Origin: Octopus sinensis
Lineage: Eukaryota
Direction of reading: 5' to 3'
DNA: 64,000 nt
Assembly (NCBI RefSeq): GCF_006345805.1
Contig: NC_043006.1
Span: 5,456,001-5,520,000 of the forward strand
Each line of letters starts with the position of its first letter. The first letter of the stretch is position 1. The translations under genes and the position numbers were made by a program. Of this stretch, positions 36,101-63,551 are shown in pieces. The notes beneath the pieces were generated by a model that saw only the letters and a program-made list of their open reading frames with translations, did no database searches and was not told the origin of the DNA.

Positions 36101-39100
36101 ACAGCACAAATCATCGTTGAATTCCAGTTATTTTGATGACTATACTTACATACTTGCCACGGACGCTGATATGGAATTTGACGACAAGAGTCTTGCTCGA
36201 CTCATTGACCTTTGCAATCGTGATAAAAATATAGGAGGCGCTTGTGGTAGAACCTCGCCAATAGGACACTGCAATACTCCGGTGGTCTGGTACCAAAAGT
36301 TTGAATATGCTAAAGGTATATCAGTGACTAAACTCACTTCTCTTTCCCGCGTTCACATGCATTCAAGTATAGGAACACATACACACGTACACACTCATCA
36401 GACATAAATATATCTGATGAGATGGATGTGTCCCACGCGTTCCAGAAACTTTAGGTCACGAGGAGCTATGGCAAGCTGTTATTATACATGGCACACACAC
36501 ACACACATACATACACACAGCTAAACCAAGAGATTCAGTAGATTAATTCTCTTGTTAATTCATGAATTAATTTTTCATCATCTACTATAAACACACAAAT
36601 GTCTTCCCTTTAGGAGGTGGAACTGGACCAAAGTCTAAAATATTTTATTAATTAGCATAAGATTATGAGTAACAATGTTATGACTTTCCTTAGTTTAAAA
36701 TTTATATTTTACTATATTAGTCTTGCATAATCTGAATAATAGATCCATTTTTGTCAGAAAGGTCACTTACAATTAATTTAACGATGTATAATTCTAATGT
36801 TGCAATGGATGCATCTATAAGTAATTAGCAAAGTATTTAACAGAGAAAGTCACAGTCGGTTCACTTAATTCAAAACAATATGGTCCAGTCAGAGCAATCG
36901 ATTCAACCGAGTACAAGAAATTAAATGGGCCGTTAGATATCCCATTACGGGTACTGCCAAACTGTCAATATTACAGTCTACATAAGGCAGCGAGCTGGTA
37001 GAATCGTTAGCACGCTGTGAAAAATGCTTAGCAGCATTTCGTCCGTCTTTACGTTCTGAGATCAAATTCCGCCGAGGTCGGTTTTGCCTTTCATCCTTTC
37101 GGGGTCGATAGAATAAGTACCAGTTGAGCACTGGGGACAATGTTATCGAATTGCTCTCTTTCCCGGCGTTGCTGGCCTTGTGTCAAAATTTGAAATTAAT
37201 ATTAGTCTCTACCTAACTGTAAGTAGGTTCTATTCCTTCTGCAAGGAAAGTTACTTGAAATACTCGTGGCACTCCGTCGGTTGCGACGACGAGGATTCCA
37301 GTTGATCCGATCAACGAAACAGCCTGCTCGTGAAATAAAACGTGCAAGTGGCTGAGTACTCCAAAGACACGTGTACATTTAATGTAGTTCTCAGGGAGAT
37401 TCAGCGTGACACAGAGAGTGACAAAACTGGCTCTTTGAAATACAGGTACAACAGAAACAAGAAGAAAAGTGAGTAAAAGTTGTTATGAAAGAGTACAGCA
37501 AGGTTCGCCACTACTCCCTGCCGGAGACTCGTGGAGCTTTCGGTGTTTTCGTTCAATAAACACTCACAACGCCCGGTCTGGGAGTCGAAACCGCAATCCT
37601 ACGACCGCGAGTCCGTTGCCCAAACCACTGGGCCATTACGCCTCCACGCTACTTGAAATAGATGGGAGCTCTATCGAGACAGAAGATTAGTTTTTATTTG
37701 TTGAATGGCTCCGAAATTCAAACAAAAACATTCCTTCTCTATGGACCTGCAAACGCCCTTACATCATCACCATTCCACATGTAGCCACATGTAGCCAAAC
37801 ACTATACTGTGTATAAATAAACTCCCTGTTTTGCAACTAAGACAACACATCTTTATATATAAAACTGTAGTTGTGTGTGTGTGTCTGTCTACTCCGATTT
37901 AGATTCCTAACTACTCCCACATTTTGCGGTGCAGTTTAACCAAAAGCGGGTATCTTATAGTCGTGATTCATATCGAGCCCTTCTGGGTATTAGCGCGCGT
38001 CTACGATGAGTCTACGATTTAAAAAAAAATTACCATCATTTTTCCGCATTTTTAATCCATTTTTGTTCGGTTTATATAAGGGAAGTAACTCTCTAAAAAT
38101 GCTTATATAGTTATTTCCCTTAAAAACCCAAGCAACGCCGGGCGATACTGCTAGTATAACATAAAATAATGACAAACGATAAGATTAACTTTTTGACTGA
38201 TTAACATTTAATTTTCGGTTTTTAGATTTCTGGATGATCAAGAGCTCGCAAAATGTCATCGGCTGCGTCATGTGTTGTCCGGGTTGTTTCAGTTTGTATC
38301 GCGCCACAGCAATACAAGATGTCATGGATACGTATTGTGAACCAATTCAGTCGGAGTTTGACGTATTTGTCAAAGACCATGGTAAAATTCAAATACTACA
38401 TGCAATTAAGAATTCCTTTGTTTTGTTTTCTGTTTTGATATCTCATGCTCATCAAATACGAATTACGTTATATATAGTGGTTATATTGATATTATAAGAT
38501 TATAGTAGAGGATTAGATCAGACTCATGATGTGTAATAGTTGTGCATAGAATATGTGTGCGTGTGAAGGAAAGTCGATTTGATATACAACTTTAATAATA
38601 CTCAACTGTGAAAACAATTCATCACTGAATGGAAACTTATGAATTAGTAAGGGAGGAATTACAACTGTGTTTCGTGGTCTGCTACCACAACAGCTCCTTT
38701 ATAGGATCCAGTTAGCTCAAGACATCATCAGGAGAAACCACGTCCGGTTTCGGTCCCTACTCCTCTACCGTTTTGACGTAGCGGGGCCCCCACTTTCGGA
38801 GGTGTCTTCAGCTCTGGAGTTGGATGCATGTCTTCTTTCTTCTGTTCCCTGGCCTCTTCGATGTATCGTCAGCGAGTGTCAGCCGGTGACTGACTGACTT
38901 GTCAAATTTTTCCCTTTAGATACCTGCCGCTAAGCTCCAGCAGGCAGCCACAGCAAGTTGTCACGTGACACTGTCTCACTTTAACTGACTAGTGAAGGCG
39001 CGCAGTCTTAGCATGCAGTAACTAGCATGCAGGGAAATGAAATGGCGGTTGCAAATTACAATACGGGTTCTCGCTTAGTAAGTTACACGAATTTTATTCT

Positions 39101-42100: not shown

Positions 42101-45100
42101 TTCCAAGTCAAACAACATGAATTAATATTTGAGTATTCAGCATAAATTTTAAAATACAATTACAAGACAATACTGCATAGAAGTAAAACAAGATTATAAA
42201 TAAAGATTGTAGATTTTTCTTTCAAAGCAAATAACACCAAACATACTCTGATCACATCATCTACAAAACCTAGATCCACTTGAATACTGACATTTCCCTT
42301 CAAAACACAGTTTCGTGTCCCCTATGGATCTCACATGTCCCCTATTAGACTGATCATTGCTCATCTAGGTTTAATTTGTAATATTAATGAGTTTCCTACA
42401 CGGCAAATTGTTTAAATTTGAAATAACTGTTTGGTCCAGACACACTGCTATAGACTGAAGTACTGAGTGTTAAATGGGTTTTCAGCTGATATCTTACAAA
42501 TTATTGACCAGTCATATCGCAATAGTAATTTTGAGTTACTGAGGAGCCTCTTTGTGGTCTCTTAGACTGCTAGAAATAGAAGTTAAATTCTCACAAAACT
42601 CTTTAACAGTTCAAAAAATGCTTTATTGCATCATGAGATAAACTGGTAAACAACCTCATAAGACGGTATAGTTATAGCTTGATGTCTTCAACCAGTGTTC
42701 ACCCGGAGCTAAATAACGAAAGCAATCCTAATAATAAAATAAAATCCGAGATGATCTTCGAGCACCTCCTTGATTTTGGCTATCAGCTCAGCATGGGTGT
42801 TGAAGGCAGAGGACAGGTGTCTTTCGAAACTGCCCCCACCCCACCCCTGACTCAGCAATCTATGGGATTACAACCGGGAGAGTCAGGGAAACGCTTCTGC
42901 AACCACATCTGACTCTTACCCGGCTATGGCAAGGAAATTAATCCTGCTGCTATACATCTGGCCTTCCAGCAGCGATCCTCTCCAGACGGAGTTCGACCAC
43001 AATCTCCAGCAGCTTCACATAGCGGTCTGAATTGAGCTTAAGGTCTTGTTCGAAGATACAGGGACGGAATCTGGCGTTCGGACGCGGTCAGAACGCCTGC
43101 TGTGTCCCTTTCTACAGACCAGGGCTTTGTAGTCTCCGTTGAAGCTGTCTATGTCATGTCATACAGACTTTACAGTGTTTATAGAGCATTGAGCAGCAGT
43201 CATGATCTAGGTATTTTGATACCCTGCGCGAATCATCATCATACAGGTAACTCGTTTCCAATATTCCAGTGGCTTCCATTCCTCCTTGTAAGCTAACTTT
43301 TTCTCAGCTTCAACTTTAATCTTTATGCTTTGCAATGCCGCTGGCTGTTCCCCATTACATCAAGTTGTGCCTGAAAAAAGCGTCAAATTTAGACCGAATA
43401 CCTTGTTTTTCAATCATTAATAAACGTAGTAATAAACAATTTAACAAGAGTATATGTCATGTTATAAAATTTCCATGCTCTGATTTTATTGGCCAGATCT
43501 TCAGGACGGACAGCTTCAGTTCAAACAATACTATTTAATTTTACTACTGATGACTGCTGTTTTATACGCTGCTTTAATACACCCCAAAGAAGCCTGGACT
43601 CTCATTCATGGTCTCACCTTTTTGGTTGTTTTCCCGGCAATGTACATTTTACTGCCATTCTATGCCGTTTCTAATATTGTGGATCAACGATGGGGAACAC
43701 GTGAAAGTGTAAGTGATATTTCATATCTTTATCTTCGCTATCGTTACTGAACTGTTTCAGATGATATACTGCATTTTATGTCCGTTTCCAAAAGTCTAAG
43801 CGGGCGAGACCACCAAATGTTTTACTCACGAAGAGATCTTTACAACATAATTAAGTATTTTACAAGTGTACAGTGACTTCCCTATTTCACAACAGGGATC
43901 TGTAATATTAAGGCGGCGAGCTGGCAGAAACGTTAGCACGCCGGGCGAAATTCTTAGCGATATTTCGTCTGCCGATACGTTCTGAGTTCAAATTCCGCCG
44001 AGGTCGACTTTGCCTTAAATCCTTTCGGGGTCGATTAAATAAGTACTAGTTACGCACTGGGGTCGATATAATCGACTTAATCCGTTTGTCTGTCCTTGTT
44101 TGTCCTCTCTGTGTTTAGCCCCTTTTGGGCAATAAAGAAATTGGTATTTCGTCTGCCGCTACCTTCTGAGTTTAAATTCCGCCGAGGTCGACTTTGCCTT
44201 TCTTCCTTTCGGGGTCGATAAATTAAGGGCCAGTTACGCACTGGAGTCGATGTAATCGACTTAATCCGTTTGTCTGTCCTTGTTTATCCCCTCTACGTTT
44301 AGCCCCTTGTGGGCAATAAAGAAATAAGGGATCTGTAATATTAGCAAATGGTGTTTTCTGATTACTGGATTGAGAGTTAAGTGCCATATGTTATGTACAG
44401 CGTTTGTGATGAGCTATGAACGAAAAGCATTTGGATTTAATGCAAGGTTTTGGGCAAACAAAACGTTGGGAAAAAATTATTTTTCTTTAATATACAGCTT
44501 TTCGTGTTTTATTCGTAATTAAAAGGAAATGATCAGATATTACTTTGAAGCGTGTTATTTATCAAAACAAATAGTTTACTATAGCTAGCTAATGTTCTTT
44601 TGTATTTAGTTCACTTTAGTAAAGATATGTTTTTCTTGGTGCTTGCAGAGGGACATTTTCTAAGATTGTCCTAGAAGTATCTTGGCGAATAAAAGTGTCA
44701 TGTTATCGGTTTGGAATGTACTTTGAAGTTATTTAGCGCATAGAGAAGGTACTCATGAAAGCGAAGGATCTTCCTTGACGGTAGCATGTATGTCACATGT
44801 ATAGCAATCTGCGTATTTTATAGTTGGTGTAGCAAAAAAAGGTTGGTAGTGATGTTACTAAAGTGGCTTGTTGCTGGACTTAGGAGCAATTTATGGATGC
44901 TCTGTTGCACAAGAAAGGAACAAGACTGGGATACAGAGCGGTAACTTTTGAAAGTGACAGGAAGAGATTTACTCGGACGGAATTTTTGACTAATAGATCA
45001 TGTAAAGTTTTTTTTATTAAAAGATGGCAGGACAGAGAAAGATCGTAGCAATTTTAGAATCATTGCAAAGCAAATGAAAGTTGTAGAAAGTGCAGGGTTA

Positions 45101-46199
45101 CCGGATAAAATGTAGTAGAATAAAAAAAAAACCTCTATCTATGGGTGTCTTGGATTAGAACGGTCTAGGCTTGATGGAACACTGCAACAAACGATGATTT
45201 AAATGTGAGGAGAAATTGGTGGATTTCCTGGTATTTCAAAAAGAAATCCAAGTTGCTGTTGCATAGACAGCAGAGTCGAAGAAACTGCTAGATTAGCAGT
45301 GTTAGGCTTAATAAGGAAAGAAGAAGGAAATTGTGGTACGTTGAGAATCAGCGTAATTATAATGCATTGACGTAAATATGTGGGGTTTATCAATGTGAGT
45401 CCGGGGAATTGGCTAAACATATGAAAATAGCCCACAAAGATTTGTAGTAATTGGTGCCATCTTGATAACCGTACCGGTGATTTGTTGATTGAACTCAGCG
45501 GAGAAGAGAGTGAGGATAAAACAAGTTCAGTTCAGTGAAGAAACTTGGATGTACTAGATTCAGGTGGAGGGCAGAAGATTGGAAAATGGTTAAAGGCTGA
45601 TAGATCGTTACTGTGGGGGATTACGGTGTACAGTGCTGAGAGATTTCATATCCATTGTCAAGAAGAGATAAGAGGATCCAGGAGGGAAAGAAAACCAGTC
45701 GAAAGGATATGTGAGAGGACAGGGAAGCGGTGAGAGATGATGCGAGACTATCGAGCTAGCTGCAGATAGGTGCAGTGGAGAGGCTTGGGAGAATATTAAG
45801 AGAATACAAGGTGAGATTCAAAGTCTGTTTATGATATAATTAGTGTCAGTAAAAAGTAGTGTAGAAGACCGAATCATTTAATGGTCCTTGAGTATCTTGA
45901 GGTAGAAGTAGGTGTCGTTGCGTTACCGGACAACTTTTCAGTGAAAGTCAGTCCGCCACACAATAACGCCAAATTCTTTGTTCACCGGTTCTATAATCTC
46001 GAAAAAGGATGTGCAGATGTTCTTGAAATTAAGGCGTTTGATATTCTTTTTATAATTAAATGATATTCGGATCTTCCAATATAAAATCTATTTCCTCTAC
46101 GCTCTGAATCTAGGATCTACAGTGAGTGGTCGTATCTTGACGAATATTTCTCCTTAATAAACTATGTATACTGTGTCTGGAAAGACTCATTAACCCTCC

Positions 46200-46276
<77 letters not shown>

Positions 46277-46339
46277 ATATATATATATAATTATATATAT
46301 ATATAATATATATATATAATATATATATATATATATTTA

Positions 46340-46370
<31 letters not shown>

Positions 46371-46448
46371 ATATATTTAATATATATATTATATATATAT
46401 TTATATATAATATATATATATATAAAAGAGTAAAAGAGTATATATATT

Positions 46449-46510
<62 letters not shown>

Positions 46511-46521
46511 ATATATATATA

Positions 46522-46562
<41 letters not shown>

Positions 46563-46658
46563 ATATATAATATATATATTAATATAATATATATATTATA
46601 ATATATATATATAATATATATATATATAATATATATATTAATATATATATTATAATAT

Positions 46659-46690
<32 letters not shown>

Positions 46691-46759
46691 ATATATAATA
46701 TAATATATATAATATTATATATATATATATATAATATATATATATATAATATATATTTG

Positions 46760-46790
<31 letters not shown>

Positions 46791-46842
46791 ATATATATAT
46801 AATAATAATATATAATATATATTATATATAATATATATATAT

Positions 46843-46890
<48 letters not shown>

Positions 46891-46900
46891 TATATATATA

Positions 46901-46950
<50 letters not shown>

Positions 46951-47753
46951 AGAGTAACCACTATGTGGTCTACTCTAGCACTAAAAATAGATCCGCTAGG
47001 TTTCAGCCACAAAGAATTGTTTCCGATGAAAGTTAGCACGACTACTAGCGCAAACGAACAGGGCAAATAAAAATAACAAAAATGCAGATTAGTTCAGGAC
47101 AATTGTTTCGCTATTAATAAATTATGTAATTTTACTCACATAACATATCTGTAGCTCTTCAGCCGAACCCGTCCAGAATACAATTTACTCAACCACACGC
47201 TAGATTTTACCATAACGATAAACACACGTGCGGTTCAGTCGATTGCATTCGCTGTTATAATTCAAGTGCCGCTTCCACAGCCCGCCAAAATTCACGGAAA
47301 CAGATACTACATCCAAAATTAAATGTAGTATAATTACAATCAACTAATAAGGGTGAGAAAGTTGGATACTAATTTAATAGTACATCCATTTAACACCAAG
47401 TGACTTAGTGCATAAAAACCTGGATTCGGCTGAAGAGCTACAGATATGTTATGTGAGTAAAATTACATAATTTATTAATAGCGAAACAATTGTCCTGAAC
47501 TAATCTGCATTTTTGTTATTTTTATTTGCCCTGTTCGTTTGCGCTAGTAGTCGTGCTAACTTTCATCGGAAACAATTCTTTGTGGCTGAAACCTAGCGGA
47601 TCTATTTTTAGTGCTAGAGTAGACCACATAGTGGTTACTCTCTTATATTTATGTATAAAATTTATCGTAATCTGGGTCTTTATGCACTAAGCCACTTGGT
47701 GTTAAATGGATGTACTACTAAATTAGTATCCAACTTTCTCGCCTTATTAGTTG

Positions 47754-47797
<44 letters not shown>

Positions 47798-47799
47798 TG

Positions 47800-47842
<43 letters not shown>

Positions 47843-47917
47843 GTATATGTATATATATATGTATATATATACACATACACACATACACACACATACACAC
47901 ACACACACACACACATA

Positions 47918-47994
<77 letters not shown>

Positions 47995-48022
47995 GTGTAT
48001 ATATATATATATATATACATAC

Positions 48023-48093
<71 letters not shown>

Positions 48094-48769
48094 TTGTGCC
48101 ATAAACTGCTATTTATTTGTTTTCTGTAGGATAGTGACAGCACAAGCTGTTACCGACACATGTCTGACAGATTGTTCACAAAAGAGAAAAGTATCAAGAG
48201 ACAAGGTGAGATAAATGATACATTTGTTACTATTAATAAAAAGATAACATATTTTCATACTAAGAATCAATTTATTGAGTCTTATGCATTATTCAGTAAT
48301 AATTAGTAGTTTGTAAGAAATCTCCTTTCTTCTATTTATAATAGAAATACCCGAATCGCAGCAATTCAATGGTGAACGTGACCTTGAAACATGCGACCCA
48401 GCCAAACATATTTTGCTGCAGAAAGAACAAACATTTTGGGAAGACCTTCGTGTCGCCATTCTAGGGACTGATGTCAATTTAGGCACTGACCAAATAACCC
48501 TCAAAATTCGGCTTAAAATATTGCGCAATCGGTTGGTGGGAATTTTGCTGCTCTGTAACATAATTTGGGCTTGTTTACTCAGTGGTCTTTATTTGACCAT
48601 CTCGAAACACGACACTATCTTTGGAATTATAACTTGTTCAGTCTATAGTTTTTCACTGATTATACAATTAATTGGACTCACTGCCCACAAATGTGATTCT
48701 TTCTTCAGAGAGTTTGTCATTCGAACATTTGGAAAAAAACACCCTATCTGGATTCATCGAAAAGATTAA
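22830..48769 (+). CDS. CHS: Chitin synthase (GT2), 12 coding exons, ~1435 aa; join(22830..22865,24824..24850,25299..25414,27622..27748,30903..31058,32559..33065,34338..36315,38226..38381,40176..40667,43497..43708,48130..48205,48345..48769)
   Basis: Motifs [56 protein letters not shown] and WGTRE occur in order. All introns are GT-AG with compatible phases and the summed length of 4308 nt is divisible by 3. N- and C-terminal multi-TM segments. Exons 1-2 are the least certain. Confidence 0.93.
22955..23351 (-). mobile_element. Non-autonomous Helitron (family B) in CHS intron 1
   Basis: TC...hairpin...CTAG termini in an AT site; homologous to 37850..38154. Confidence 0.78.
23436..23637 (+). mobile_element. 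SINE family C, older variant
   Basis: Diverged head and core. Confidence 0.75.
23766..24142 (+). mobile_element. tRNA-SINE family A, full length
   Basis: Near-identical to 29333..29712. Confidence 0.88.
24824..24850 (+). CDS. CHS: CHS exon 2, 27-nt microexon (ETANVLFAE)
   Basis: Poly-T tract + TCTAG acceptor, GAG|GTATGC donor, phase 0/0 fits both neighbours. Confidence 0.5.
25299..25414 (+). CDS. CHS: CHS exon 3 ([27 protein letters not shown]...)
   Basis: TTTTCTAG acceptor, TG|GTAAGT donor; hydrophobic TM helix; phase 2 joins exon 4 to make Trp. Confidence 0.8.
26117..26790 (-). mobile_element. Degenerate R4/Dong-type RLE retrotransposon fragment
   Basis: [53 protein letters not shown]. 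Confidence 0.82.
27622..27748 (+). CDS. CHS: CHS exon 4 ([14 protein letters not shown]...[10 protein letters not shown])
   Basis: TTCTGTTACAG acceptor, GT donor, open frame, TM segment followed by WP. Confidence 0.82.
28960..30560 (-). mobile_element. Fragmented CR1/L2-type LINE RT and C-terminus
   Basis: [10 protein letters not shown] (GVPQGSVL-like), YADN, STLWNLP..LQQFK; interrupted by a SINE and (CA)n. Confidence 0.62.
29333..29724 (+). mobile_element. tRNA-SINE family A, full length
   Basis: TSD GTGGCTCTTCTCT; (GAA)n tail. Confidence 0.9.
30903..31058 (+). CDS. CHS: CHS exon 5 ([21 protein letters not shown]...)
   Basis: TTGCAG acceptor, AAT|GTAAGT donor; two TM segments. Confidence 0.87.
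32559..33065 (+). CDS. CHS: CHS exon 6 (multi-TM)
   Basis: TTTTTCAG acceptor, AAG|GTAAC donor; 169 open codons with about four TM helices. Confidence 0.9.
34338..36315 (+). CDS. CHS: CHS exon 7 (start of GT2 catalytic domain plus large insertion)
   Basis: 1978-nt open exon with [22 protein letters not shown] and WYQKFEYAK. Confidence 0.96.
36984..37200 (+). mobile_element. SINE family C, older variant
   Basis: Head and core. Confidence 0.8.
37263..37648 (-). mobile_element. tRNA-SINE family A, full length
   Basis: TSD TACTTGAAATA. Confidence 0.88.
37850..38154 (+). mobile_element. Non-autonomous Helitron (family B) in CHS intron 7
   Basis: A|TCTTTATATAT...CCCAAGCAACGCCGGGCGATACTGCTAG|T. 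Confidence 0.78.
38226..38381 (+). CDS. CHS: CHS exon 8 ([26 protein letters not shown]...KDH)
   Basis: Conserved PGCFSLYR motif; phase 1/1. Confidence 0.96.
38562..39060 (-). mobile_element. Probable solo LTR in CHS intron 8
   Basis: TGT...ACA termini, ~500 bp, GC-richer; on - an AGTCAGTCAGT Inr-like tract and ATTAAA ~30 nt from the end; flanks GTGCG/ATACG only partly match. Confidence 0.45.
39686..39993 (+). mobile_element. tRNA-SINE family A head with V-like tail
   Basis: TSD TACTTTGCAT. Confidence 0.85.
40176..40667 (+). CDS. CHS: CHS exon 9 (GEDRW, QRKRW, TM helices)
   Basis: Catalytic-base motif EDR and QxxRW motif. Confidence 0.96.
41146..41388. mobile_element. MITE-like repeat
   Basis: Imperfect TIRs AAGTATA..TTTGC; related pieces at 51620-51830 and inside the Helitron at 23020-23085. 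Confidence 0.4.
42745..43060 (-). mobile_element. Tc1/mariner transposase relic
   Basis: Degenerate translation [42 protein letters not shown]. Confidence 0.72.
43497..43708 (+). CDS. CHS: CHS exon 10 (...AALIHPKE...WGTRES)
   Basis: HPxE and WGTRE chitin synthase motifs; CAG acceptor, GTAAGT donor. Confidence 0.95.
43911..44326 (+). mobile_element. SINE family C, dimeric
   Basis: Perfect 17-bp TSD AGGGATCTGTAATATTA. Confidence 0.92.
46203..46945. repeat. (TC)n followed by ~700-bp degenerate (TA)n
   Basis: Direct reading. Confidence 0.95.
47093..47167 (-). ncRNA. Minimal type I hammerhead ribozyme, inverted copy
   Basis: Reverse complement of 47425..47499; stem I extends to GTTCGG/CTGAAC. 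Confidence 0.8.
47425..47499 (+). ncRNA. Minimal type I hammerhead ribozyme (sense to CHS pre-mRNA)
   Basis: Stem I TTCGG/CTGAA; core CTGAAGA (47430-36); stem II GCTA/TAGC; GAAA (47483-86); palindromic stem III CAATTG; GUC cleavage triplet (cut after 47494). Confidence 0.8.
48130..48205 (+). CDS. CHS: CHS exon 11
   Basis: TTTCTGTAG acceptor, AG|GTGAG donor; phases 0/1 fit. Confidence 0.8.
48345..48769 (+). CDS. CHS: CHS exon 12, terminal (EQTFWEDLR...LKILRNR, two TM helices, stop)
   Basis: ExxFW and LxxLRN motifs of the CHS C-terminus; TAA; AATAAA at ~48774 and 48871. Confidence 0.93.
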
Positions 48770-49188: not shown

Positions 49189-49577
49189 GGCGGCGAGCTG
49201 GCAGAAACGTTAGCGCGCCGGGCGAAATGCTTAGCGGTATTTCGTCTGTCGATACGTTCTGTGTTCAAATTCCGTCGAGGTCGACTTTGCCGTTCATCCT
49301 TTCAGGGTCGATTAAATAAGTCGGGGTCGCTGTAATCGACTTAATCCCTTTGTCTGTCCTTGTTTGTCTCTTCTATGTTTAGCCCCTTGTGGGTAATAAA
49401 GAAATAGGTGTTACGTTCTGAGCTCAAATTCCGCCGAAGTCGACTTTGCCTTTCATTCTTTCGGGGTCGATAAATAAAGTACCAGTTTCACACTGGGGTC
49501 GATGCAATCGTCTTCATCCTTTGTCTGTCTTTGTTCGTCCCCTCTATGTTTGGCCCCTTGTGGGCAGTAAAGAATTG
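49189..49577 (+). mobile_element. SINE family C, dimeric
   Basis: TSD ATTATTGATATAA(C/T)TGTA. Confidence 0.9.
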
Positions 49578-51364
49578 ATTATTGATATAATTGTAAAGAA
49601 ATTCCGAACAAAAACAATTACAACAAAAAAAAGAACAATCATTTCACTTCTAACAGAAGCCACGCACAGGTACTTTAGAATACGCTCACCTTATTGTTAC
49701 GTGTAACAGCAATTACATTTTCAACATAAAGAAAGGATTTTTTTAAATGATAACTAAACACTTATGTAATCCTTAGTTTCTACATGAGCAGTTTAAGACT
49801 ATATATATATAAAATTATATATATGTATGTATATATAAAGACGGTTCATTCATCGTGCTTTGTTGTGAAGTTATTTTTCTTGGTATTTCACTCCATAATT
49901 TTTCTTCTACTAATTTTTGTTCAATGCGACTAACAACTCTGAATTCCTCATACATTTTTCTATCATTTAAGCCTGAGAAAAGTATACTTTCATTTTAAAA
50001 TTAAAATGTTTCTGTTAATTGAAAGTGAATAGGTGACTTACTGCCCCCCCCCCTGAAGTCGCAGACATTTTGATGCAACTTTTCTTCTGTTGAACCAAAT
50101 CTCAAATCATTTATGCCAAAGTGTAGCTGAGGAGGTTTCCTCTTTAAAACTGTTAACAGTTTGCAATTTAGTTGAGGACTGAATTACTGGTGAAGCTTGG
50201 AAGCTGCTGCAATTAACAAAAAAGTTGACTTAAGAATATATTCAACCACCACCGTGGTTGAATGATACTCAACAAATCCAATTGTTCCAGAGAACTGGAG
50301 CTACTAATTTGCGTACCGTGAGCGTTAATGCTATTTTAATATCTGGGATCTATCAATGGGGATCTGAGTCTACACAGTTATAATATAGGTAACCTATATA
50401 GTAGTTATACAAGGCTAGATTCAGTGAAACAATTTCTATTTCAAGATAAGTTTGAGCTCAGGGAAGAAACCTTAAATTCCTTAAATTTCCTATATTCAAA
50501 TACATTTTAATCTTTCTAAGTTTTCAGAGTTAAATCAACAGAAAAACTGACCATAAAAATGTTTATTGAATTGCACTAACATATCAAAACATATGCATTG
50601 TCATACAAGATGCAATCTGTGACTTTAATATTGAAAGTGAGAAATGTTGCAATGAAAACGAAATACAGGACTATTTGGTGTATTACACTATAGCAATATG
50701 CATGTATAGTGAAACACACTGGTATGTTTGACATTAGATACGACTCTGCGGGTAATATATGATTGAATTAACACCGAGTTTACAGATTAAATGAATATAT
50801 ATCCCAATCATATATGTGAGAACAAATGTTTGTCGGGCGATTCTTTAAGAAAATTTAATTAATAAGTGTTGGAATGGAATTGTTTCGCCAGATCAGTTTA
50901 TACAAAACACTAGAGGTCCCAAGGCGCATTTTCTGTTTTAAATATTGCATTATGTTAGTCCTTAGTACAAATGAGTGTACATCATTTGATCCTCTTTTAT
51001 CTCAGTATAAAAATTCTTTTATATAACTCAGTTACACATAATAATAATAATAAAACAAGTTGGTCACTATTTCCAAGTATTTGATATTTAAGACATGCTT
51101 TCTTCTTCTTGAATTTTGTATTTTCTCATCCAAAAAGCAATCAATTGCTTTAAAGAAGGTAAGCCGTATCAACTATTTCTTCTACGACTTCCCAACATCC
51201 TATAAAAGTTATACCAGAAACTGAGGTGTATATTCAAGCTTTCCGCCGCTTTTTCACTTGACTAGCTTCCTTGGCAGGAATTATTTTGCATTATTCAGGT
51301 AGACACAGGATTCTTGAGCAGAATATCATGAAGGGACTGACATTTATATTCAGAAGTTGCTCAT

Positions 51365-51502: not shown

Positions 51503-54500
51503 CTGAAAAAGAATAAACGAATAAATTTGTTAGACTGCATTTCAAATTATTACAACATTTATAAGGTAGAAATAATTACTTAAAGCAATCTACTATCAAC
51601 TGGCAAAAACAAATGGCTAAATGGGGATAAAAGCTACAGTAACACTCACCCTTAGTGGTTAGCCATATTGAGATGGCAAATATACTTTACATTGTCGAGC
51701 GGTTACTGTTTGCATCTCGTTCAGACAGTTTTTCGAAATCAGTGACGGAAGTTACTGGGAAAAACAATAAGTATTTGCAAACAGGTCTCCCGTCATCGTA
51801 AACCAGTGATTGCCGTACGCCGAAGACAGGCAAATACCTAGAAACTGCAGTCCGTGCGTATCACTTAGGTTGACGAGAGAGGGATGACCTCCCTTTGCAA
51901 ATACCATAAGAGCACAGAAAGTGTGTCTAAAGCCAGCTGGAGACGATGTTCTCCTGGGGAATTTTTCTGGTTTTGTAATGTTTGGAGTATTTTGAAACTT
52001 TTAAATGATGTATCTACATTCAATCATAGTTTTTTTTTCAAAATGATATGGAACTGCTGTTGTTCATTCTCAATTCAGCGGTGAGAAAAGATGTTCTCTT
52101 TAGTGTTCGAGAATATCTTACGAATCGCGTCACGGCTTTAGAGTTGTTTGCTGCTGAAAAGTTGCCCGTGGATATCTATACTGAGCTAACCATTTACTTC
52201 GTTCCACAAAAGATTTTCTTAGATAACATCATCTCTATAATTTTGAGGCTCTATTGACACCAAATATTCTGTATTTCTTCGGGTTTGGTTTGATATTAGT
52301 GCTTAAATTTTTGATATCGTGATAGTCTATGAGCTGGCCTTGTGTGTTACTAGTGTGATGAGCGAGTCTTCCTCTTTTCCACGGAAAGCTGACTGATTTC
52401 ACCGTTGTTATTTTCAAACAAATACTGGATTCTCGTTTTTACTGAAACCAATGTTACTTTCGTTGTTTCAATGCTAATATTCCGAACTGATAAGCATTCT
52501 TCATTGAAAGAATTTAGATGATTGATATTTATGTCTGGTGACAGATTTTTCTCACTTTGAAATACCATTGTTAGTTAGTTAGTTAGTTAGTTAACTAATT
52601 AACTAACTAACAATGAAATACCATTGTTAATTAGTTAGTTAGTTAACTAATTAACTAACTAACAATGAAATACCATTGTTAATTAGTTAGTTAGTTAACT
52701 AATTAACTAACTAACAATGAAATACCATTGTTAATTAGTAGTTAGTTAACTAATTAACTAACTAACAATGAAATACCATTGTTAATTAGTTAGTTAGTTA
52801 ACTAATTAACTAACTAACAATGAAATACCATTGTTAATTAGTTAGTTAGTTAACTAATTAACTAACTAACAATGAAATACCATTGTTAATTAGTTAGTTA
52901 GTTAACTAATTAACTAACTAACAATGAAATACCATTGTTAATTAGTTAGTTAGTTAACTAATTAACTAACTAACAATGAAATACCATTGTTAATTAGTTA
53001 GTTAGTTAACTAACTAACTAACTAACTAACAATGGTATTTCGTTTCATAGTTTATCACAAATGATGATCTCCGTGCATGATATGGATGGCAAGTGCAATA
53101 TTCAACAGATATCAACCCTATGAGCTTTTCTGGTGACAAGGACGACACTTTTGTATTGATGTCTGGCGATGATATAGTCGAGAATCTGTCAGTACCTGGA
53201 TTGTGAATACATGCATGTCGTCTTAAATTAGTCGCGAAGTCGGAACTGAACGTTAGTGATGAAGAGGGAATTTCGATGAAGAGGGAATTTCGATGAAGAG
53301 GGAATTTCGATGAAGAGGGAATTTCGAACAGAAAACAGGATTGGGAAGTTAGTTGGGATTACAGTTTCCCGCATCTTCTTCCTTAATCTGTAACATCTTC
53401 CCATTCCTGACTATCCTTAATTTTCCGTTGAAATCACCTATAAGTAAATGTCTGTCTTTTGTTGGTACTTTCAAAATAATGTTACTCAATCGTTGGTAAA
53501 ATTGACTTTTCATATCTTCACTGGCACCAAGAGTCGGAGCATAAACTGACATCTTTATCTTTTTATCCTATACTTGTTTCAATCATTAGATAGCGGCCAT
53601 GATGGGGAACCGCCTTGAATTTTTAGTCGAATGACTCGACCCCAGTATATATTTTTTCAGCCTGGTACTTAATTTATCGGTCTCTTTTGGCCGGACCGCT
53701 ACTTTAGAGGACGTAAACACACAAACACCGGTTGTCAAGTGATGGTGGGAGGATAAACACAGACATAAAGCTATACACAGATATATATATATACATAGGG
53801 GCTTCTTTCAGTTTCCGTCTACCAAATCCATTCCCAAGGCTTTGGTCCGCCTGAGGCAATAATAAAATACATTTTCCTAAGGTGCCACGCATTAGGACTG
53901 AACCAGGTGGTTGAGAAGCAAGCTTCTTACCACACAGCCACTCCTGCGCCTATGAGAAATTATGTTATGTTGGGGGTAATAACACCCAAAGTGTCATATA
54001 AGATTCGTTGATGATAGCTGGAATTAGTTGACCTCGAAAAATCAAGGTTTTAATAAACAATACCAATTCTTCGTATTCTTTCATCAACTACAGCTTTCCC
54101 TTTCTAAAAGAATCTATAGTCAGAACTAGTTCAGGTTTTCCTTCTCTTAAGTGTTTAGTTTTGCATAGAGAATCGAGAATTCTCTCGAGACAAGTACCGT
54201 ATGTTGTTTTTAACTTTTAATGTTATAATGATCAAGAAGTGTCCTTTCGTTCCACATTCCAAAGAAGAGATTGATAGATCCATATCCACATAATTTACTA
54301 TATTAACTTCAATATAGGCGCAGGAGTGGCTGTGTGGTAAGTAGCCTGCTTACCAGCCACATGGTCCCGGGTTCAGTCCCACTGTGTGGCACCTTGGGCA
54401 AGTGTTTTCTACTATAGCCTCAGGCCGACCAAAACCTTGTGAGTGGATTTGGTAGACGGAAACTGAAAGAAGCCTGTCGTATATATGTATATATATATAT

Positions 54501-57500
54501 GTATATATGTGTGCGTGTATGTTTGTGTGTCTGTGTTTCTCCCCCTAGCATTGCTTGACAACCGATGCTGGTGTGTTTATGTCCCCGTCACTTAGCGGTT
54601 CGGCAAAACAGACCGATAGAATAAGTACTGGGCTTACAAAGAATAAGTCCTGGGGTCGAGTTGCTCGATTAAAGGCGGTGCTCCAGCATGGCCGCAGTCA
54701 AATGACTGAAACAAGTAAAAGAGAGAAAGAGAGAAAGAGAGATATAAATATCAATAGTTACTAATTTGAACTAAAAGAAAAAACAGCTTTTGATTTTCGG
54801 AATGCAAAATCTGTTTGGGAGCTTAATTCTTGAGTTTATCATTGCAAAACGCGTTTATGAATTTTGCTAAGTGATTGCATATACCTTATTTACGATATAT
54901 GAATACACGATTTTGTGAAAGTGTTTGTAACATGTTTTTACTCACCGGAAATAAAGTCCAAAATTGGTCACCTTTCATACCATGGCATGGTGCAGCGCTT
55001 AGATCATTCCTAAAGTCTAAACAGATGTCATTTATTCTCAGTTCGTTCTTTTTGGTATAATAAATATGCTGAGAATAGAATATAAAGAATAAATCTTTAT
55101 TAATTTAAATACCTTAATATAGCAATACAATTGTGAATATTTACAGCAAATATTAAATAATATATTAGTTTCTTTTCCAATTAACTCAACTAAAGTTTTA
55201 GGTCTTAGGGAGAAAGCGAAAAACCTGGATGCCAAATAGACTTGGTTAAGTGAAGACTACCTTGATTTTAATTTCATTCATTTCAGAGTCATAAAATACT
55301 TAACCTGTTAATTTATACCTTGTCCGTGGACCTTGTGCCTAGTAGGGAAAAAATTAATTGTATTATGTTGTCCGGAAAGTTCGTGCCGATTTATAGTAGT
55401 TTACCTTTCGACTTATTTTAGAACAAGGTTGAGTCCATAAAATAGGATTTGACTACACCTCCATTTAGAGCACAGTTTAAGCTATCTTTCGTGGAAAACG
55501 GTTTATATTCCTACAACCTGCGTTAATTTTGTAACCCTTTAAAATTGAAGATAAGAAAGTTCATTTTCGGCACTTGATGCTTTGGAACAAAAATTGCTGC
55601 AGCTCGGCCGGGATGTGTTACCCCACCCTCCATATTCACCAGATATTGTTCCTTCGGATTTCCACTTATTTAGATATCTGCAGAATAGTCTTAACTTTCC
55701 GGACAACCCAATACTTTCCGTCATGGAACATCTCTGAAATATTTCAGTGTTTGCACATTCTTGTATAAACCATAACGTTATATACAACAGGAGACTTCCC
55801 TACCATCAAGAGTATCACTGGTATCAATGCTATCTGGAATTTAGTACTCCTGTTAGGACTATGAATCAAAGTCGGAGAATAAAATCCAGACTGAAACACG
55901 ACCAAAATGCTTCAAAGACTACAACGACTGAAAAGTGGTTGTAGACATGACCAATGATTGATTTCAATAACATCTGAACTGGAAGAGGTGGGCAGACCAG
56001 ACCAGACCGGACCAGACCAGACGAACTGCTTAAGGAGATACCACGTGAGACTACAAATGAGCGAGTGGATATCTTGTAATTTCGTCACCTAATACCTCAT
56101 TCCTCATTCGGAATGTGTCACACAGCATGATCCTGAAACCAAATTTGTGTGTGTGTATGTGTGTGTCATTCCTTATAAAGTCGAGATCCAAAGTAAATGA
56201 ATCCACGCCAGCAGCATTTCTTCCGGTTGATATTTCCTGTATCGTTTATATTTTATTTTATGCGAAATGCACAATTGGGATGGGATAAGTACTACTAAGA
56301 CAGCATTTGTGTTGCTTGGAGTTTCTAGTCTGGACGTTGGTTGGAGATGTCTGACACTCACCTTCAAAAACCCAGGGGCTATTCGTGATTTCTAATTCTA
56401 CGCCTGCGTTTTAGTACTTCTATTCAGGAATATCACGACCCAATCTCAGCGAGGAAATCTACAGAACAAGTGGGATAAAATTTGGGAGCCACTTTTTGGT
56501 TCCAGGTTGGGCGCATTCACCCAGCATGTTACTCTTAATGTGTTCGAGTCTAAGAAAACTGAGTTTGGATCTATCAACTTAATCTGTTTTGAGAGGAATG
56601 ATCTTTATTCTATTTTATTTAATTGGCGAAATAGAATAATCTCTTGATTATTACTTCAGAACGTTAAACTGATTTACTATAAATGCAGTAAGTAAATATG
56701 TAGTAGACACAGTGAGTCAAATGATTACATGCATAATCGCTTCTTAATTTTGCATGTAACTTGAACCTTGACTTGTAACATGTGGTTTATACAGTTTTAT
56801 CACATTAACTATTTGACTGACATAAGTACGAGCTGACCAATCAAACATATTATATTTTAAAATTAAGTTAGAAAATTAAAATCATTGGTTGTAAGTTGGT
56901 TTGAAATTCCTCTCTGATTTCTGCTTTTCTAACCGAAGCATATATATAAACGGAGACAATAGAAACTTAATCGACTGAGCACTGTCAGGGACTTGTGCGA
57001 TCAGTAATATCATGAAAGAACTGTTTCTGTTAGAAATATTTCAACAACAAAAACAATATAAATGACTTGAGACGCGATTAATATTAAAAGTAAAATTTGG
57101 AAAGTATAATTTTATCGATCGCTTACTGTCGCTCTTCAGTGTCTGGAGTTAAAATTTCGCTGATGCTGGTTTTGCACACCTCACAGGTTGTTAATGAAAT
57201 AACGATAATATACTTGAATAGACTTTCTTAAATAGACACGTTTACTTGCGTCTAAACAAAAGATTCTATATGGATATTGCACTACAAATGGGAGGTTCGG
57301 AGGAAACATTCACAATTATGTTTAAACAAGATCATAGTATAAGAATTTGATTCTACCTGATTTCCACTCGCTTTATCACATTTGGTAACCTGTACACGCA
57401 TTCCTAAAGCCGCTTCTAAGCATTTTCTAGAATTCATATTCATTACCTTAACAATAAAAATTGAAAATGTTATTAGATTTTCTTCACAATTCATCGAGAA

Positions 57501-60500
57501 AATGTGTTTATTTTCCAATGGACCAAATTTCCCTTTGAAAAACAACGAAGATCCGTGATTTCCAATGAGAAAAAGTAGAAATTTAAAGAGACAGTGGAGA
57601 CTGGAGTATCACAGCGTATTGTTAGTTAGTTTACAATTAAATAATTCAATGTATGATATTCTAGTTTTACTCAAATATTCCCTAAACCTGGAATTGGTTC
57701 TAAGATTATAGAAACTCAAAGTTTTCCTTTTTTAATTTTTTTAATTAGCTTACAGTTTATCAAACTCTGCTGTGAATAATTAATGATAAATATAAAACAT
57801 GATTTTGCAACTATAATCAATTTTAGTATAGCTAATTCTGTTCCCTGAACAACAATATTAACACCCATCAACATTTCTGATAATAGATGGTTATTATGAC
57901 GCTTATAATGAAATAAAATATGTTTACTAAGTTACATTTCCCACAAACAATTTACAGTCGTTTTTAGTGGGTCACTGTAAACAATGACGAACTTTCCTAA
58001 TTATTTTATCTAACATAACTCACTGAGTTTCAAATTTGAATATATTTTCGCGAATTTCATATCCCGACTAATCAAATAAATAACTATTTATATAAGAAGA
58101 GCCAAGTATGACATTCACCTCGAACTGTTCCTGCTAAGATGCCAACGAAAAGAGAAACCTTATCTAAAAGTATGAATTTTCTTTCTTTTAATTTTCGCTT
58201 TCAATCTCCGCTTGTGTTTAGATCTTTTCAGCTTCAATAAAATAAACATCATAAGGCAAATTTAAATAGATTCAACTCATTATATCTTTCTCTTTTATTC
58301 TCTTTTACTTGTTTCAGTCATTTGACTGCGGCCATGCTGGAGCACCGCCTTTAATCGAGCAACTCGACCCCGGGACTTATTCTTTGTAAGCCCAGTACTT
58401 ATTCTATCGGTCTGTTTTGCCGAACCGCTAAGTGACGGGGACGTAAACACACCAGCATCGGTTGTCAAGCAATGCTAGGGGGAGAAACACAGATACACAA
58501 ACACACACACATACATATATATATATATACATATATACGACGGGCTTCTTTCAGTTTCCGTCTACCAAATCCACTCACAAGGCATTGGTCGGCCCGGGGC
58601 TATAGCAGAAGACACTTGCCCAAGGTGCCACGCAGTGGGACTGAACCCGGAACCATGTGGTTGGTTAGCAAGCTACTTACCACACAGCCACTCCTGCGCC
58701 TTCAAATATTGTCGTCTTTCCTAATCAAATGAAATTCGTATTAATATTGGTGCTCAAGGTGGTGAGCTGGCAGAGTGGTTAGCACGCTGGACGAAATGCT
58801 TTGCAGTATTTCGCCCGTTGCTCTGTTCTGAGTTCAAATTCTGCCGAGGTCGACTTTGCCTTTCATCCTTTCGGGATCGATAAATTAAGTACCAGTTGAG
58901 TACTGGGGGTTGATGTAATCGACTATCCTCCTCCCCCAAATTCCAGGCCTTGTGCCTATAATAGGAAGGATTTATCTATTTGCATTTTTTTTTGTCTGTC
59001 TTTATGCTCTGAGTTCAAATTCTACCGAGGTCGACTTTGCCTTTCATCCTTTCGGGATCGATAAATTAAGTACCAGTTGAGTACTGGGGGTTGATGTAAT
59101 CGACTATCCTCCTCCCCCAAATTCCAGGCCTTGTGCCTATAATAGGAAGGATTTATCTATTTGCATTTTTTTTGTCTGTCTTTATGCTCTGAGTTCAAAT
59201 TCTACCGAGATCGACTTTGCCTTTCATCCTTTCGGGATCGATAAATTAAGTACCAGTTGAGTACTGGGGGTTGATGTAATCGACTATCCTCCTCCCCCAA
59301 ATTCCAGGCCTTGTGCCTATAATAGGAAGGATTTATCTATTTGCATTTTTTTTTGTCTGTCTTTATGCTCTGAGTTCAAATTCTACCGAGGTCGACTTTG
59401 CCTTTCATCCTTTCGGGATCGATAAATTAAGTACCAGTTGAGTACTGGGGGTTGATGTAATCGACTATCCTCCTCCCCCAAATTCCAGGCCTTGTGCCTA
59501 TAATAGGAAGGATTTATCTATTTGCATTTTTTTTTGTCTGTCTTTATGCTCTGAGTTCAAATTCTACCGAGATCGACTTTGCCTTTCATCCTTTCGGGAT
59601 CGATAAATTAAGTACCAGTTGAGTACTGAGGGTTGATGTAATCGACTATCCTCCTCCCCCAATTCCAGGCCTTGTGCCTATAATAGGAAGGATTTATCTA
59701 TTTGCATTTTTTTTTGTCTGTCTTTATGCTCTGAGTTCAAATTCTACCGAGATCGACTTTGCCTTTCATCCTTTCGGGATCGATAAATTAAGTACCAGTT
59801 GAGTACTGAGGGTTGATGTAATCGACTATCCTCCTCCCCCAAATTCCAGGCCTTGTGCCTATAATAGGAAGGATTTATCTATTTGCATTTTTTTTTGTCT
59901 GTCTTTATGCTCTGAGTTCAAATTCTGCCGAGGTCGACTTTGCCTTTCATCCTTTCGGGATCGATAAATTAAGTACCAGTTGAGTACTGAGGGTTGATGT
60001 AATCGACTATCCTCCTCCCCCAAATTCCAGGCCTTGTGCCTATAATAGGAAGGATTTATCTATTTGCATTTTTTTTTGTCTGTCTTTATGCTCTGAGTTC
60101 AAATTCTACCGAGGTCGACTTTGCCTTTCATCCTTTCGGGATCGATAAATTAAGTACCAGTTGAGTACTGGGGGTTGATGTAATCGACTATCCTCCTCCC
60201 CCAAATTCCAGGCCTTGTGCCTATAATAGGAAGGATTTATCTATTTGCATTTTTTTTTGTCTGTCTTTATGCTCTGAGTTCAAATTCTACCGAGATCGAC
60301 TTTGCCTTTCATCCTTTCGGGATCGATAAATTAAGTACCAGTTGAGTACTGGGGGTTGATGTAATCGACTATCCTCCTCCCCCAAATTCCAGGCCTTGTG
60401 CCTATAATAGGAAGGATTTATCTATTTGCATTTTTTTTTGTCTGTCTTTATGCTCTGAGTTCAAATTCTGCCGAGGTCGACTTTGCCTTTCATCCTTTCG

Positions 60501-62345: not shown

Positions 62346-63551
62346 CTGGAAAAAATAGCACCCATATAAGAACGGATGAACGTTGTAACCAAATGATGTA
62401 AATAAAGTCAACCGTAGTTCTAGTTTATTTCCTAGCTTATATACCAGTGTATCCTAAAAGCTTTAAGAGTTAGCGCACAATTCTGAAACGAGTTTGTACT
62501 TAAGCGAAGTAAAACATGAAAAAGTAATGTATATACGTCCATCGGTCTAAGGTAAGATTTAGCTTTTGTACACCGTTGTTTAGCATTTTCGGATGTCTAA
62601 CCAGAATTTTCAGTATGTAACTGGCAGCTAACTATGATGAGGAAAGGCATTTAGAGGACTACTTTGTTTTGAGTAGCTGTATTCTGAACACGATTTATCA
62701 TCATAACCTAAATAATCATAACCTAAATCATCATCATCATCCAGCATCTGTCTTCCATGCTGGCATGGATTGGATGGTTTGACAGTAGCTGGCAAGCCAG
62801 AAAGCTGCACCAGGCTCCGTTGTCTGCGTCGGCATTGTTTCTACGTCCAAATACCCTTCCTAACGGCAAGTTTTAAATTTAATTCTTTAAACGTTGGCAT
62901 AAAATCTTTCCTAAATTTATCTAGATATAACTAGCCAAACAATACATAAAAAATTACATCGCGGAAGCTAGTAAAAATGCGAAATGAAAACCGATCCGAT
63001 CCGACCCCATGTAACTAGAAACTTCCTAACGTTATCCTAACATTATAATGCAGACATTTCCCCAACAATAACAAATACTATAAAGTATACAAGAAATATG
63101 ATATAAAAGTTAGTTAAACCTGCATGAAAAGCATCGCCAACTCCGTTGTTAGAAAGTAACAGAACCACACACGTGCGAATAAGACAAACTCTTCATTTCA
63201 GTTAACTTACAGCATTATTATGCTCTGCATTCTCAATAATAGGTTATTAACAGGAATAGACGTCTTCAGGGTCAATGTGACTCCTGCACAAATAAAGAGA
63301 AGTGATGCCGAGTATAGGTACCATATCATTTGAAATTACGATCTGTGATAAACCGGTGATCTGCCAGAAGAATATTTATCTTTTAGTTATTCCTTATGAA
63401 AATGAAGCTAAGAATGACCAATAAATGCTACTCAGAGCTAAGGTGACTTTTACGTACAATTAAAATACTACTGTGCTGGAAAAGATGTAAAGACAATTGG
63501 TCCAACTGTATCTGAATAGTAAATTTTGTTTGTTAATATTGTACTACCACA

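What the first reader, a model, noticed from the sequence alone, without database searches (positions are those of the whole stretch)
46945..47756. Twin, oppositely oriented intact hammerhead ribozymes in a fold-back element inside chitin synthase intron 10
Seen: a complete type I hammerhead core on + (47425-47499: TTCGG-CTGAAGA-GCTA..TAGC-GAAA-CAATTG-TC-CTGAA) and its inverted copy on - (47093-47167). They sit in ~220-bp near-perfect inverted arms; a second ~90-bp inverted pair interleaves with them (A..B-A'..B'). Established: minimal type I hammerheads with a palindromic stem III occur in Penelope-like element pLTRs and are thought to cleave as dimers. Inference: this is a non-autonomous, ribozyme-bearing Penelope derivative. 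Either strand's transcript carries a ribozyme plus its antisense lock. The sense copy could cut CHS pre-mRNA unless sequestered in the A/A' hairpin, with B/B' pairing or ADAR editing as possible competing switches.
Basis: partly seen in the sequence, partly recalled or inferred. Interest (0 to 1): 0.75.

Follow-up and report, generated by a model that had tools for sequence, protein, structure and literature searches.

The report
Back-to-back insertion of an octopus retrozyme
The twin ribozymes are one insertion of a common 507-base, protein-free repeat that landed in an intron as two back-to-back arms ending at two fixed sites; it was likely pasted from an RNA circle by a Penelope-type jumping-gene enzyme and is likely not a switch for the chitin synthase gene.

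Summary
Observation confirmed: two intact type I hammerhead cores on opposite strands, 223/223-identical arms, and a second ~92-nt inverted pair, in a TA tract inside a chitin synthase intron ('intron 10' not verified). It is two pieces of one 507-nt tandem unit joined head-to-head. The unit has hundreds of copies and sister families of 534 and 526 nt. Copies end at two fixed sites, E1 and E2, 103-127 nt apart. Of 66 head-to-head loci, 55 pair E1 with E2, one scored E1+E1 (E1+E2 by eye), none E2+E2. B/B' is only this 'tail' seen twice, and 22 of 95 loci carry the same twin hammerheads. Stems covary across 11 variants around an invariant core. In the young sister family, private substitutions run through every unit of both arms, which points to one circular template. 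Hydra-type Penelope elements in this genome show the same two ends, but no sequence link was found. The switch idea fails: B/B' (-128 kcal/mol) cannot free the ribozyme from A/A' (-405). Known kind (non-LTR retrozyme with Penelope marks); the scan noted the same rule earlier in other families of this genome. No cleavage or expression shown.

The parts
46945..47757 (.). Whole insertion: two arms of one 507-nt unit, joined 5' to 5'
46945..47426 (-). Left arm, 482 nt: tail part B, middle M, hammerhead, A; ends at fixed site E1 (unit about +155 to +164 after the cut site)
47425..47757 (+). Right arm, 333 nt: hammerhead, A', tail; ends at fixed site E2 (unit about +265)
47425..47426 (.). Head-to-head junction with a 2-nt overlap (TT)
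   Evidence: sequence against family copies; position varies between loci
47425..47499 (+). Type I hammerhead, sense to the host gene; 5-bp stem I; predicted cut 47494/47495
47091..47169 (-). Type I hammerhead, antisense; 7-bp stem I; predicted cut 47098/47097
46945..47167 (-). Arm A, identical to 47425-47647 (223/223)
47648..47757 (+). Tail between E1 and E2 (X plus B'), 103 nt between the anchors; holds a 13-nt block invariant in three families
47334..47426 (-). B: the same tail sequence, one unit earlier, at the 5' end of the left arm
47168..47333 (-). M: rest of the unit, present once
46237..46944 (.). Left TA-rich microsatellite (target)
47758..48095 (.). Right TA/CA/TG microsatellite (target)
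43709..48130 (+). Host intron of a chitin synthase gene, between coding exons 43496-43708 and 48131-48204

Best explanation
This is one insertion of a dispersed 507-nt non-coding, hammerhead-bearing tandem repeat (a non-LTR retrozyme), laid down as two head-to-head arms that end at two fixed sites, likely because a Penelope-type (likely Hydra-clade) enzyme nicked both strands of a TA tract and copied one, likely circular, RNA from two internal start sites. Shown: the unit, its tandem arrays, the two ends, their one-of-each pairing, the TA target, the covarying ribozyme fold, and shared private substitutions in both arms of young arrays. Inferred: the hammerhead cuts multimeric transcripts into monomers that are ligated into circles; one nick primes at E1, the other at E2; both cDNAs stop at variable points and are joined at their ends with 0-6 nt of overlap; when both run past the ribozyme, twin opposite hammerheads result. 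Predicted for this locus: the antisense arm is transcribed first and locks the sense ribozyme in a 223-bp hairpin, so the insertion is likely a near-neutral passenger that is spliced out.
For: Real tandem arrays give periods of 507, 534 and 526 nt. First-look candidates 2412, 1470 and 1065 (not copy numbers); 239 exact matches of a 35-nt ribozyme pattern for families A and C, control 0. Of 95 distinct loci, 66 are head-to-head; 55 pair E1 with E2, 1 scored E1+E1, 0 E2+E2, 10 have another or cut-off end; binomial p 8e-16 for 55 of 56. With queries that do not select for the tail: 49 against 1. In a sample ordered by genome position, 12 of 14 head-to-head loci are E1+E2, 5 of them new. 122 of 152 E1/E2 ends run into TA-rich DNA. 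Twin opposite hammerheads in 22 of 95 loci, both cores intact in 18. Hammerhead stems: 92% of cells paired, 10 of 13 pairs with changes on both sides, 0 of 500 shuffles reach the covariation score, slid controls 33-45%. No ORF over 52 aa. In 5 of 11 young family-B arrays a private substitution is in every unit read on both arms. A 17-hammerhead array has the same E1 and E2 ends in TA. A Hydra-type element here (DKT, GLYRDD, C-terminal CxxC; against the alignment seen) has a long-stem hammerhead and two ends 150 nt apart, one of each in 6 of 6 loci where both arms show the ribozyme. Published parallels: inverted 5'-truncated copy and one-sided tail (PMC8557442, PMC3846280); two internal start sites and both strands nicked and extended in vitro (PMC11167929).
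Against: No autonomous element with sequence similarity to the unit was found: 47 GIY-YIG loci held it only as separate neighbours in TA tracts (3 of the 17 long ones), and 8 Hydra-type loci gave no significant match beyond TA and low-complexity DNA. No cleavage, circle or transcript was shown; no listed run is on record as RNA. In old families A and C the arms of one locus are only slightly more alike (2.6%) than units one period apart (3.3%), so a single template is not shown for this copy; B and B' share just one rare variant. The tail (103-127 nt) is longer than the 30-40 bp in print. Loci were mostly the best-scoring, longer copies, so the share of inverted loci is inflated. The window's A arms lack rare variants while the rest has about 10 in 366 nt, which the model does not explain. 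Only 1 of 9 frog retrozyme dimers cut in vitro (10.64898/2026.07.22.740005).
Confidence: 0.85

Rival explanations
1. Same element and enzyme, but the template is a linear multimeric transcript of an existing genomic array (or two RNAs held by a protein dimer), not a circle; the hammerhead is carried along and need not cut.
For: Cleavage was not needed for insertion by the anole Poseidon protein in vitro, and its hammerhead cut only with protein (PMC11167929). 5' ends of arms do not cluster at the cut site. Arms in old families differ by 2.6%.
Against: Array-private substitutions in all units of both arms in 5 of 11 young arrays, and a 17-unit single insertion; each would need its own unsampled, uniform source array. 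Stems covary around an invariant core, so the fold is kept.
Confidence: 0.25
2. This copy has been co-opted: the hairpin and the locked ribozyme tune chitin synthase pre-mRNA, by cutting when unlocked or through ADAR editing of the 223-bp duplex.
For: The sense core is intact, 373 nt from the 3' splice site. The A arms have no rare variant in 446 nt against about 10 in the other 366 nt; family-wide, paired and unpaired parts do not differ (p 0.43 and 0.62), so this copy is an outlier among 33 loci (noticed after the fact).
Against: The same design is in 22 of 95 loci. A:A' -405 against B:B' -128 kcal/mol, and the two do not compete for the ribozyme; all three stems have pairing probability 0.00 in the whole element. 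Even without arm A, stem I of the + copy scores 0.00-0.22. Among copies the core decays almost like its flanks (1.6% against 2.2% in A; 1.5% against 2.4% in C). The partner for a dimer is on the other strand.
Confidence: 0.04
3. The inversion arose by fold-back self-priming of one cDNA (as proposed for rotifer Penelope elements) or as a terminal-inverted-repeat DNA transposon (MITE or Foldback).
For: Head-to-head junctions with palindromes were read as self-priming in PMC3846280. Some loci have both 5' ends at nearly the same unit position (for example L133, L136, L154).
Against: Here neither arm is contained in the other (482 nt to E1, 333 nt to E2), junctions vary freely, and the two outer ends differ by a fixed tail. 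29 of 95 loci have no adjoining inverted arm, and tandem arrays exist, unlike a MITE.
Confidence: 0.05
4. The inversion is an assembly artefact.
For: Long TA flanks; no listed public contig piece bridges the junction; the perfect arm identity could reflect polishing.
Against: An artefact would mirror one sequence; here the arms end at different, family-wide fixed sites and each holds sequence that the other lacks.
Confidence: 0.02

Closest known systems
Metazoan non-LTR retrozymes (Cervera and de la Pena 2020, PMC7229834; Li, Clavereau and Pollet 2026, 10.64898/2026.07.22.740005)
   Same: Non-coding tandem units of a few hundred bases, one type I hammerhead each, GC under 50% (0.32-0.37), 2-bp stem III with a palindromic tetraloop, dispersed monomers and arrays, living beside Penelope-like elements; about 42-44% of frog copies lie in introns.
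   Different: Units of 507-534 nt (170-400 in the 2020 paper; 51-972 in the 2026 preprint); stem II region of 45-51 nt; head-to-head insertions with two fixed ends ('inverted' does not occur in the 2020 main text); circles not shown here.
EN+ Penelope-like elements: inverted pLTR and 'tail' (PMC8557442, PMC3846280) and anole Poseidon PAc (PMC11167929)
   Same: 5'-truncated inverted copy next to the 5' end, tail on one end only, AT-rich target, two internal start sites that define the tail.
   Different: No ORF; tail of 103-127 nt rather than 30-40 bp; the tail is called optional in print, whereas here head-to-head loci pair one end of each kind in 55 of 56 scored cases.
Hydra-clade Penelope-like elements (PMC8557442, including Hydra-1_Obim)
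   Same: (TA)n target and a canonical hammerhead; a Hydra-type family in this genome has a long stem II, a palindromic stem III and two ends 150 nt apart.
   Different: The unit has no significant sequence match to that family; the partner is inferred from architecture only. Neptune-like elements with intact 775-781-aa frames also sit in TA tracts here.
L1 twin priming (recalled, no call)
   Same: Both nicked strands prime reverse transcription and give a 5' inversion.
   Different: In L1 the second primer anneals at a variable internal site; here both start sites are fixed and the stops vary.

Membership tests
Type I hammerhead ribozyme | Core CUGANGA, GAAA and NUH with three helices | tested here: met
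   N7 and N17 vary while the other core letters are invariant in 11 variants (the core was part of the search pattern for 8 of them)
Type I hammerhead ribozyme | Covariation of stems I and II | tested here: met
   10 of 13 pairs change on both sides; pair 10.1-11.1 is unpaired in 6 of 11
Type I hammerhead ribozyme | Match to an Rfam hammerhead model | tested here: not met
   no match at gathering score; the long stem II is the likely reason (inference)
Type I hammerhead ribozyme | Self-cleavage | not testable with these tools
   needs an assay; stem III pairing probability 0.00-0.12 as monomer
Metazoan non-LTR retrozyme | Tandem units, each with a type I hammerhead | tested here: met
   family A dimer, family B arrays up to 17 hammerheads, family C dimer; the window copy itself has no two cores in tandem
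Metazoan non-LTR retrozyme | Non-coding, GC under 50% | tested here: met
   longest ATG frame 38-52 aa; GC 0.32-0.37
Metazoan non-LTR retrozyme | Dispersed, many copies | tested here: met
Metazoan non-LTR retrozyme | Expressed as monomeric linear and circular RNA | not testable with these tools
   no run on record as RNA; indirect support from array-private variants
Metazoan non-LTR retrozyme | Target-site duplication, when present, longer than 4 bp | tested here: inconclusive
   hidden in TA tracts
Element mobilised by EN+ Penelope-like proteins | Partial tandems and an inverted 5'-truncated copy | tested here: met
Element mobilised by EN+ Penelope-like proteins | Tail on one end, from two start sites | tested here: met
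   length 103-127 nt, not 30-40
Element mobilised by EN+ Penelope-like proteins | (TA)n target | tested here: met
   122 of 152 ends
Element mobilised by EN+ Penelope-like proteins | Sequence shared with the pLTR of an autonomous element | tested here: inconclusive
   none in 47 GIY-YIG loci or 8 Hydra-type loci; only a small part of 5029 candidates was looked at; a weak 30-nt likeness behind the hammerhead of another family
Autonomous Penelope-like element | RT and GIY-YIG ORF | tested here: not met
MITE or Foldback DNA transposon | Fixed, matching terminal inverted repeats | tested here: not met
   ends differ by the tail, arm lengths vary from 47 to 1879 nt

The most novel reading that the evidence does not exclude
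Octopus retrozymes record an obligate two-site mechanism: a dimeric Hydra-type enzyme grips one circular RNA at the conserved block in the tail, and starts one cDNA at E1 on one nicked strand and the other at E2 on the opposite strand, so every double-primed insertion has one end of each kind; as a by-product, sense ribozymes that land in introns arrive with their own antisense lock, which would let such insertions survive in genes.
Probability: 0.4. Interest if true: 0.6.

Novelty: new variant of a known kind. Interest (0 to 1): 0.4.

Why it matters
How Penelope-like elements make their inverted ends and tail, and whether animal retrozymes are copied from circles by these enzymes, are stated as open or hypothetical in the papers read. 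This family gives countable genomic evidence on both, and the young 534-nt sister family (at least 20 matches at 100% over 391 nt) offers a template with two predicted start sites for a direct in vitro test. As a regulator of chitin synthase the locus is most likely ordinary.

Tried and rejected
Rfam at gathering score: nothing. Search for an autonomous partner: 30 GIY-YIG loci and 17 longer stretches gave Neptune-like frames with the unit only as a separate neighbour; a Hydra-type family and another hammerhead family gave no significant match to the unit. No RNA holder listed. A general loss of mutations in paired arms: not found. Same-unit against shifted-unit identity: too small a gap to decide the template in old families. 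Clustering of 5' ends at the cut site: suggested by the first 60 loci, not held in family B. B/B' as a switch, a cis dimer of the two cores, a MITE and an artefact were considered and rejected (see rivals). Look-ups of earlier notes by sequence gave nothing. No complex or structure job was sent.

Full report
Observation. The window holds exactly two hammerhead cores with paired stems I and II, at 47430-47494 on + and 47162-47098 on -. The arms 46945-47167 and 47425-47647 are identical over 223 nt. A second inverted pair, 47334-47426 and 47669-47757, has 7 mismatches and one gap in 92 columns. Both flanks are microsatellites. The host gene is a chitin synthase on +, 99% identical over one exon to an Octopus vulgaris protein, so the genome is likely an octopus. 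The element lies in the intron 43709-48130, the second-to-last coding intron found; the number 10 was not checked. Rfam finds nothing.

What it is. The order A-M-B on one strand and A'-X-B' on the other fits one circularly permuted unit read outwards from a central junction. A real tandem elsewhere in the genome confirms this, with a period of 507 nt. The left arm runs from unit position about 176 round to E1 (about +155 to +164 after the cut site); the right arm runs from about 436 to E2 (about +265). The junction is a 2-nt overlap at 47425-47426. B' is the stretch between E1 and E2; B is the same stretch one unit earlier. Two sister families were found: B (534 nt, 76% identical, at least 20 matches at 100% over 391 nt) and C (526 nt, 62%). 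None has an ATG frame over 52 aa.

The two-end rule. 120 loci from four searches reduced to 98 by script and to 95 after I merged three more by their coordinates (L109 and L111 with L110, L132 with L113). 66 of the 95 are head-to-head. 55 pair E1 with E2, one scored E1+E1, none E2+E2, and 10 have an end elsewhere or cut off by the locus edge. The one E1+E1 case (L143) ends at E2 on inspection. Leaving out loci found only by the query that holds the tail gives 49 against 1. In a sample listed by genome position (24 distinct loci), 12 of 14 head-to-head loci are E1+E2; 5 of these are new. Arm lengths and junction points vary freely. 122 of 152 such ends run into TA-rich DNA (counted before the three merges). 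Twin opposite hammerheads occur in 22 of 95 loci, with both cores intact in 18. These loci are mostly best-scoring, longer copies, so the shares are not genome-wide rates.

The ribozyme. Across 11 variants the core is invariant except at N7 and N17, stem I has been rewritten several times, and 10 of 13 pairs change on both sides; no shuffle of 500 reaches the covariation score and slid controls fall to 33-45% paired. The core was in the search pattern for 8 of the 11, so its invariance is partly built in; the stem covariation is not. Within families, copies mutate in the core almost as often as outside it, as expected for neutral decay after insertion. Stem III has two pairs and a palindromic loop, the usual metazoan type that cuts weakly alone and better as a dimer (PMC4209133, passages; PMC7229834, parts 2-4 of 6). 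The two cores here are on opposite strands, so no transcript has a cis partner.

Template. In 11 young family-B arrays, five carry a substitution found in no other array and in every unit read on both arms; two more carry one in the arm that covers the place. One insertion has 17 hammerheads in tandem, ends at E2 in TA, and has a short inverted arm ending at E1. One circular monomer copied round and round from two primers explains this most simply; a uniform source array for each insertion is the rival. For the old families the test is weak (2.6% against 3.3%); in the window copy B and B' share one rare variant.

Enzyme. The genome has many GIY-YIG matches (5029 candidates), including intact Neptune-like frames and a Hydra-type family recognised by DKT, GLYRDD and a C-terminal CxxC (compared by eye with PMC8557442 section 11 and supplement passages). 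The Hydra-type family has a long-stem hammerhead, ends at +50 and +200 in TA, and one end of each kind in 6 of 6 loci where both arms show the ribozyme. It shares architecture, not significant sequence, with the unit. The Hydra lead came from earlier notes of this scan. In print, Penelope-like elements carry an inverted 5'-truncated copy and a 30-40-bp tail on one end (PMC8557442 and PMC3846280, passages), and the anole protein nicks and extends both strands, starts at two internal sites that define the tail, and is predicted to be a dimer (PMC11167929, parts 1-2 of 4). A 2026 preprint argues that animal retrozymes are non-autonomous Penelope derivatives (parts 1-3 of 5; supplements not seen).

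The host gene. In the pre-mRNA arm A is made before the sense ribozyme. Folding the whole element gives pairing probability 0.00 for all three ribozyme stems; the A:A' duplex is -405 kcal/mol and B:B' -128, and they use different bases. The sense copy has also lost two pairs of stem I at the junction. So B/B' cannot unlock it. The long duplex is a plausible ADAR substrate (general knowledge, not tested). One oddity remains: the A arms carry no rare variant, the rest about 10 in 366 nt, while paired and unpaired parts do not differ across 33 loci. Arm-to-arm conversion, polishing of the assembly, chance and selection all remain open.

Novelty. The kind of element is known. Eight literature searches listed no paper on cephalopod retrozymes and none, in the parts I read, that states a strict one-of-each use of the two ends; most subscription papers are outside the library. 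Earlier notes of this scan report the same rule and the circle argument for other families of this genome; they are unchecked notes and are not counted as support. Verdict: a new variant of a known kind, interest 0.4; the regulatory reading has about 4% odds.

Noticed in passing
G000:C1:95539400-95548900 (L258, L259): A single family-B insertion of about 9 kb with 17 hammerheads in tandem and a short inverted arm; ends at E1 and E2 in TA.
   Followed up: partly
L007:2177 onward; run X14 loose end at window 47593: The same foreign sequence follows unit position +100 in a genomic copy and in a contig of another run: possibly another retroelement that inserts into the unit at a fixed site, or the same locus seen twice.
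   Followed up: no
L300-L303 (Hydra-type family): An asparagine-rich stretch of over 100 aa sits between the RT and the endonuclease, like the N-rich inserts described in rotifer Penelope elements (PMC3846280).
   Followed up: no
window 47697-47709 and the three units: A 13-nt block in the tail is invariant in families A, B and C, about 45 nt after E1; a similar short word lies at a similar distance in the Hydra-type tail. Candidate protein-binding site.
   Followed up: partly
window 34338-36315: A 2-kb chitin synthase exon with about 350 aa of low-complexity sequence inside the catalytic domain; relatives align on both sides with a shorter gap.
   Followed up: no
window 38225-38386: A conserved catalytic-domain exon present in the O. 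bimaculoides protein but missing from the O. vulgaris gene model P0001: annotation error or skipping.
   Followed up: no
window 61083-62453 (-): Two exons that look like a polypeptide GalNAc transferase (recalled motifs; no Pfam hit at 1e-3).
   Followed up: no
window 43900-44330, 49230-49590 and 58750-63940: Several copies of a short interspersed repeat; a mariner-like fragment at 55555-55737 and a LINE endonuclease-like fragment at 53349-53567 (both recalled motifs).
   Followed up: no
L095-L098, L101: A young Neptune-like family with intact 781-aa frames (96-99% identical copies) and an upstream frame of up to 479 aa; no canonical hammerhead found at its 3' end by my scan.
   Followed up: partly
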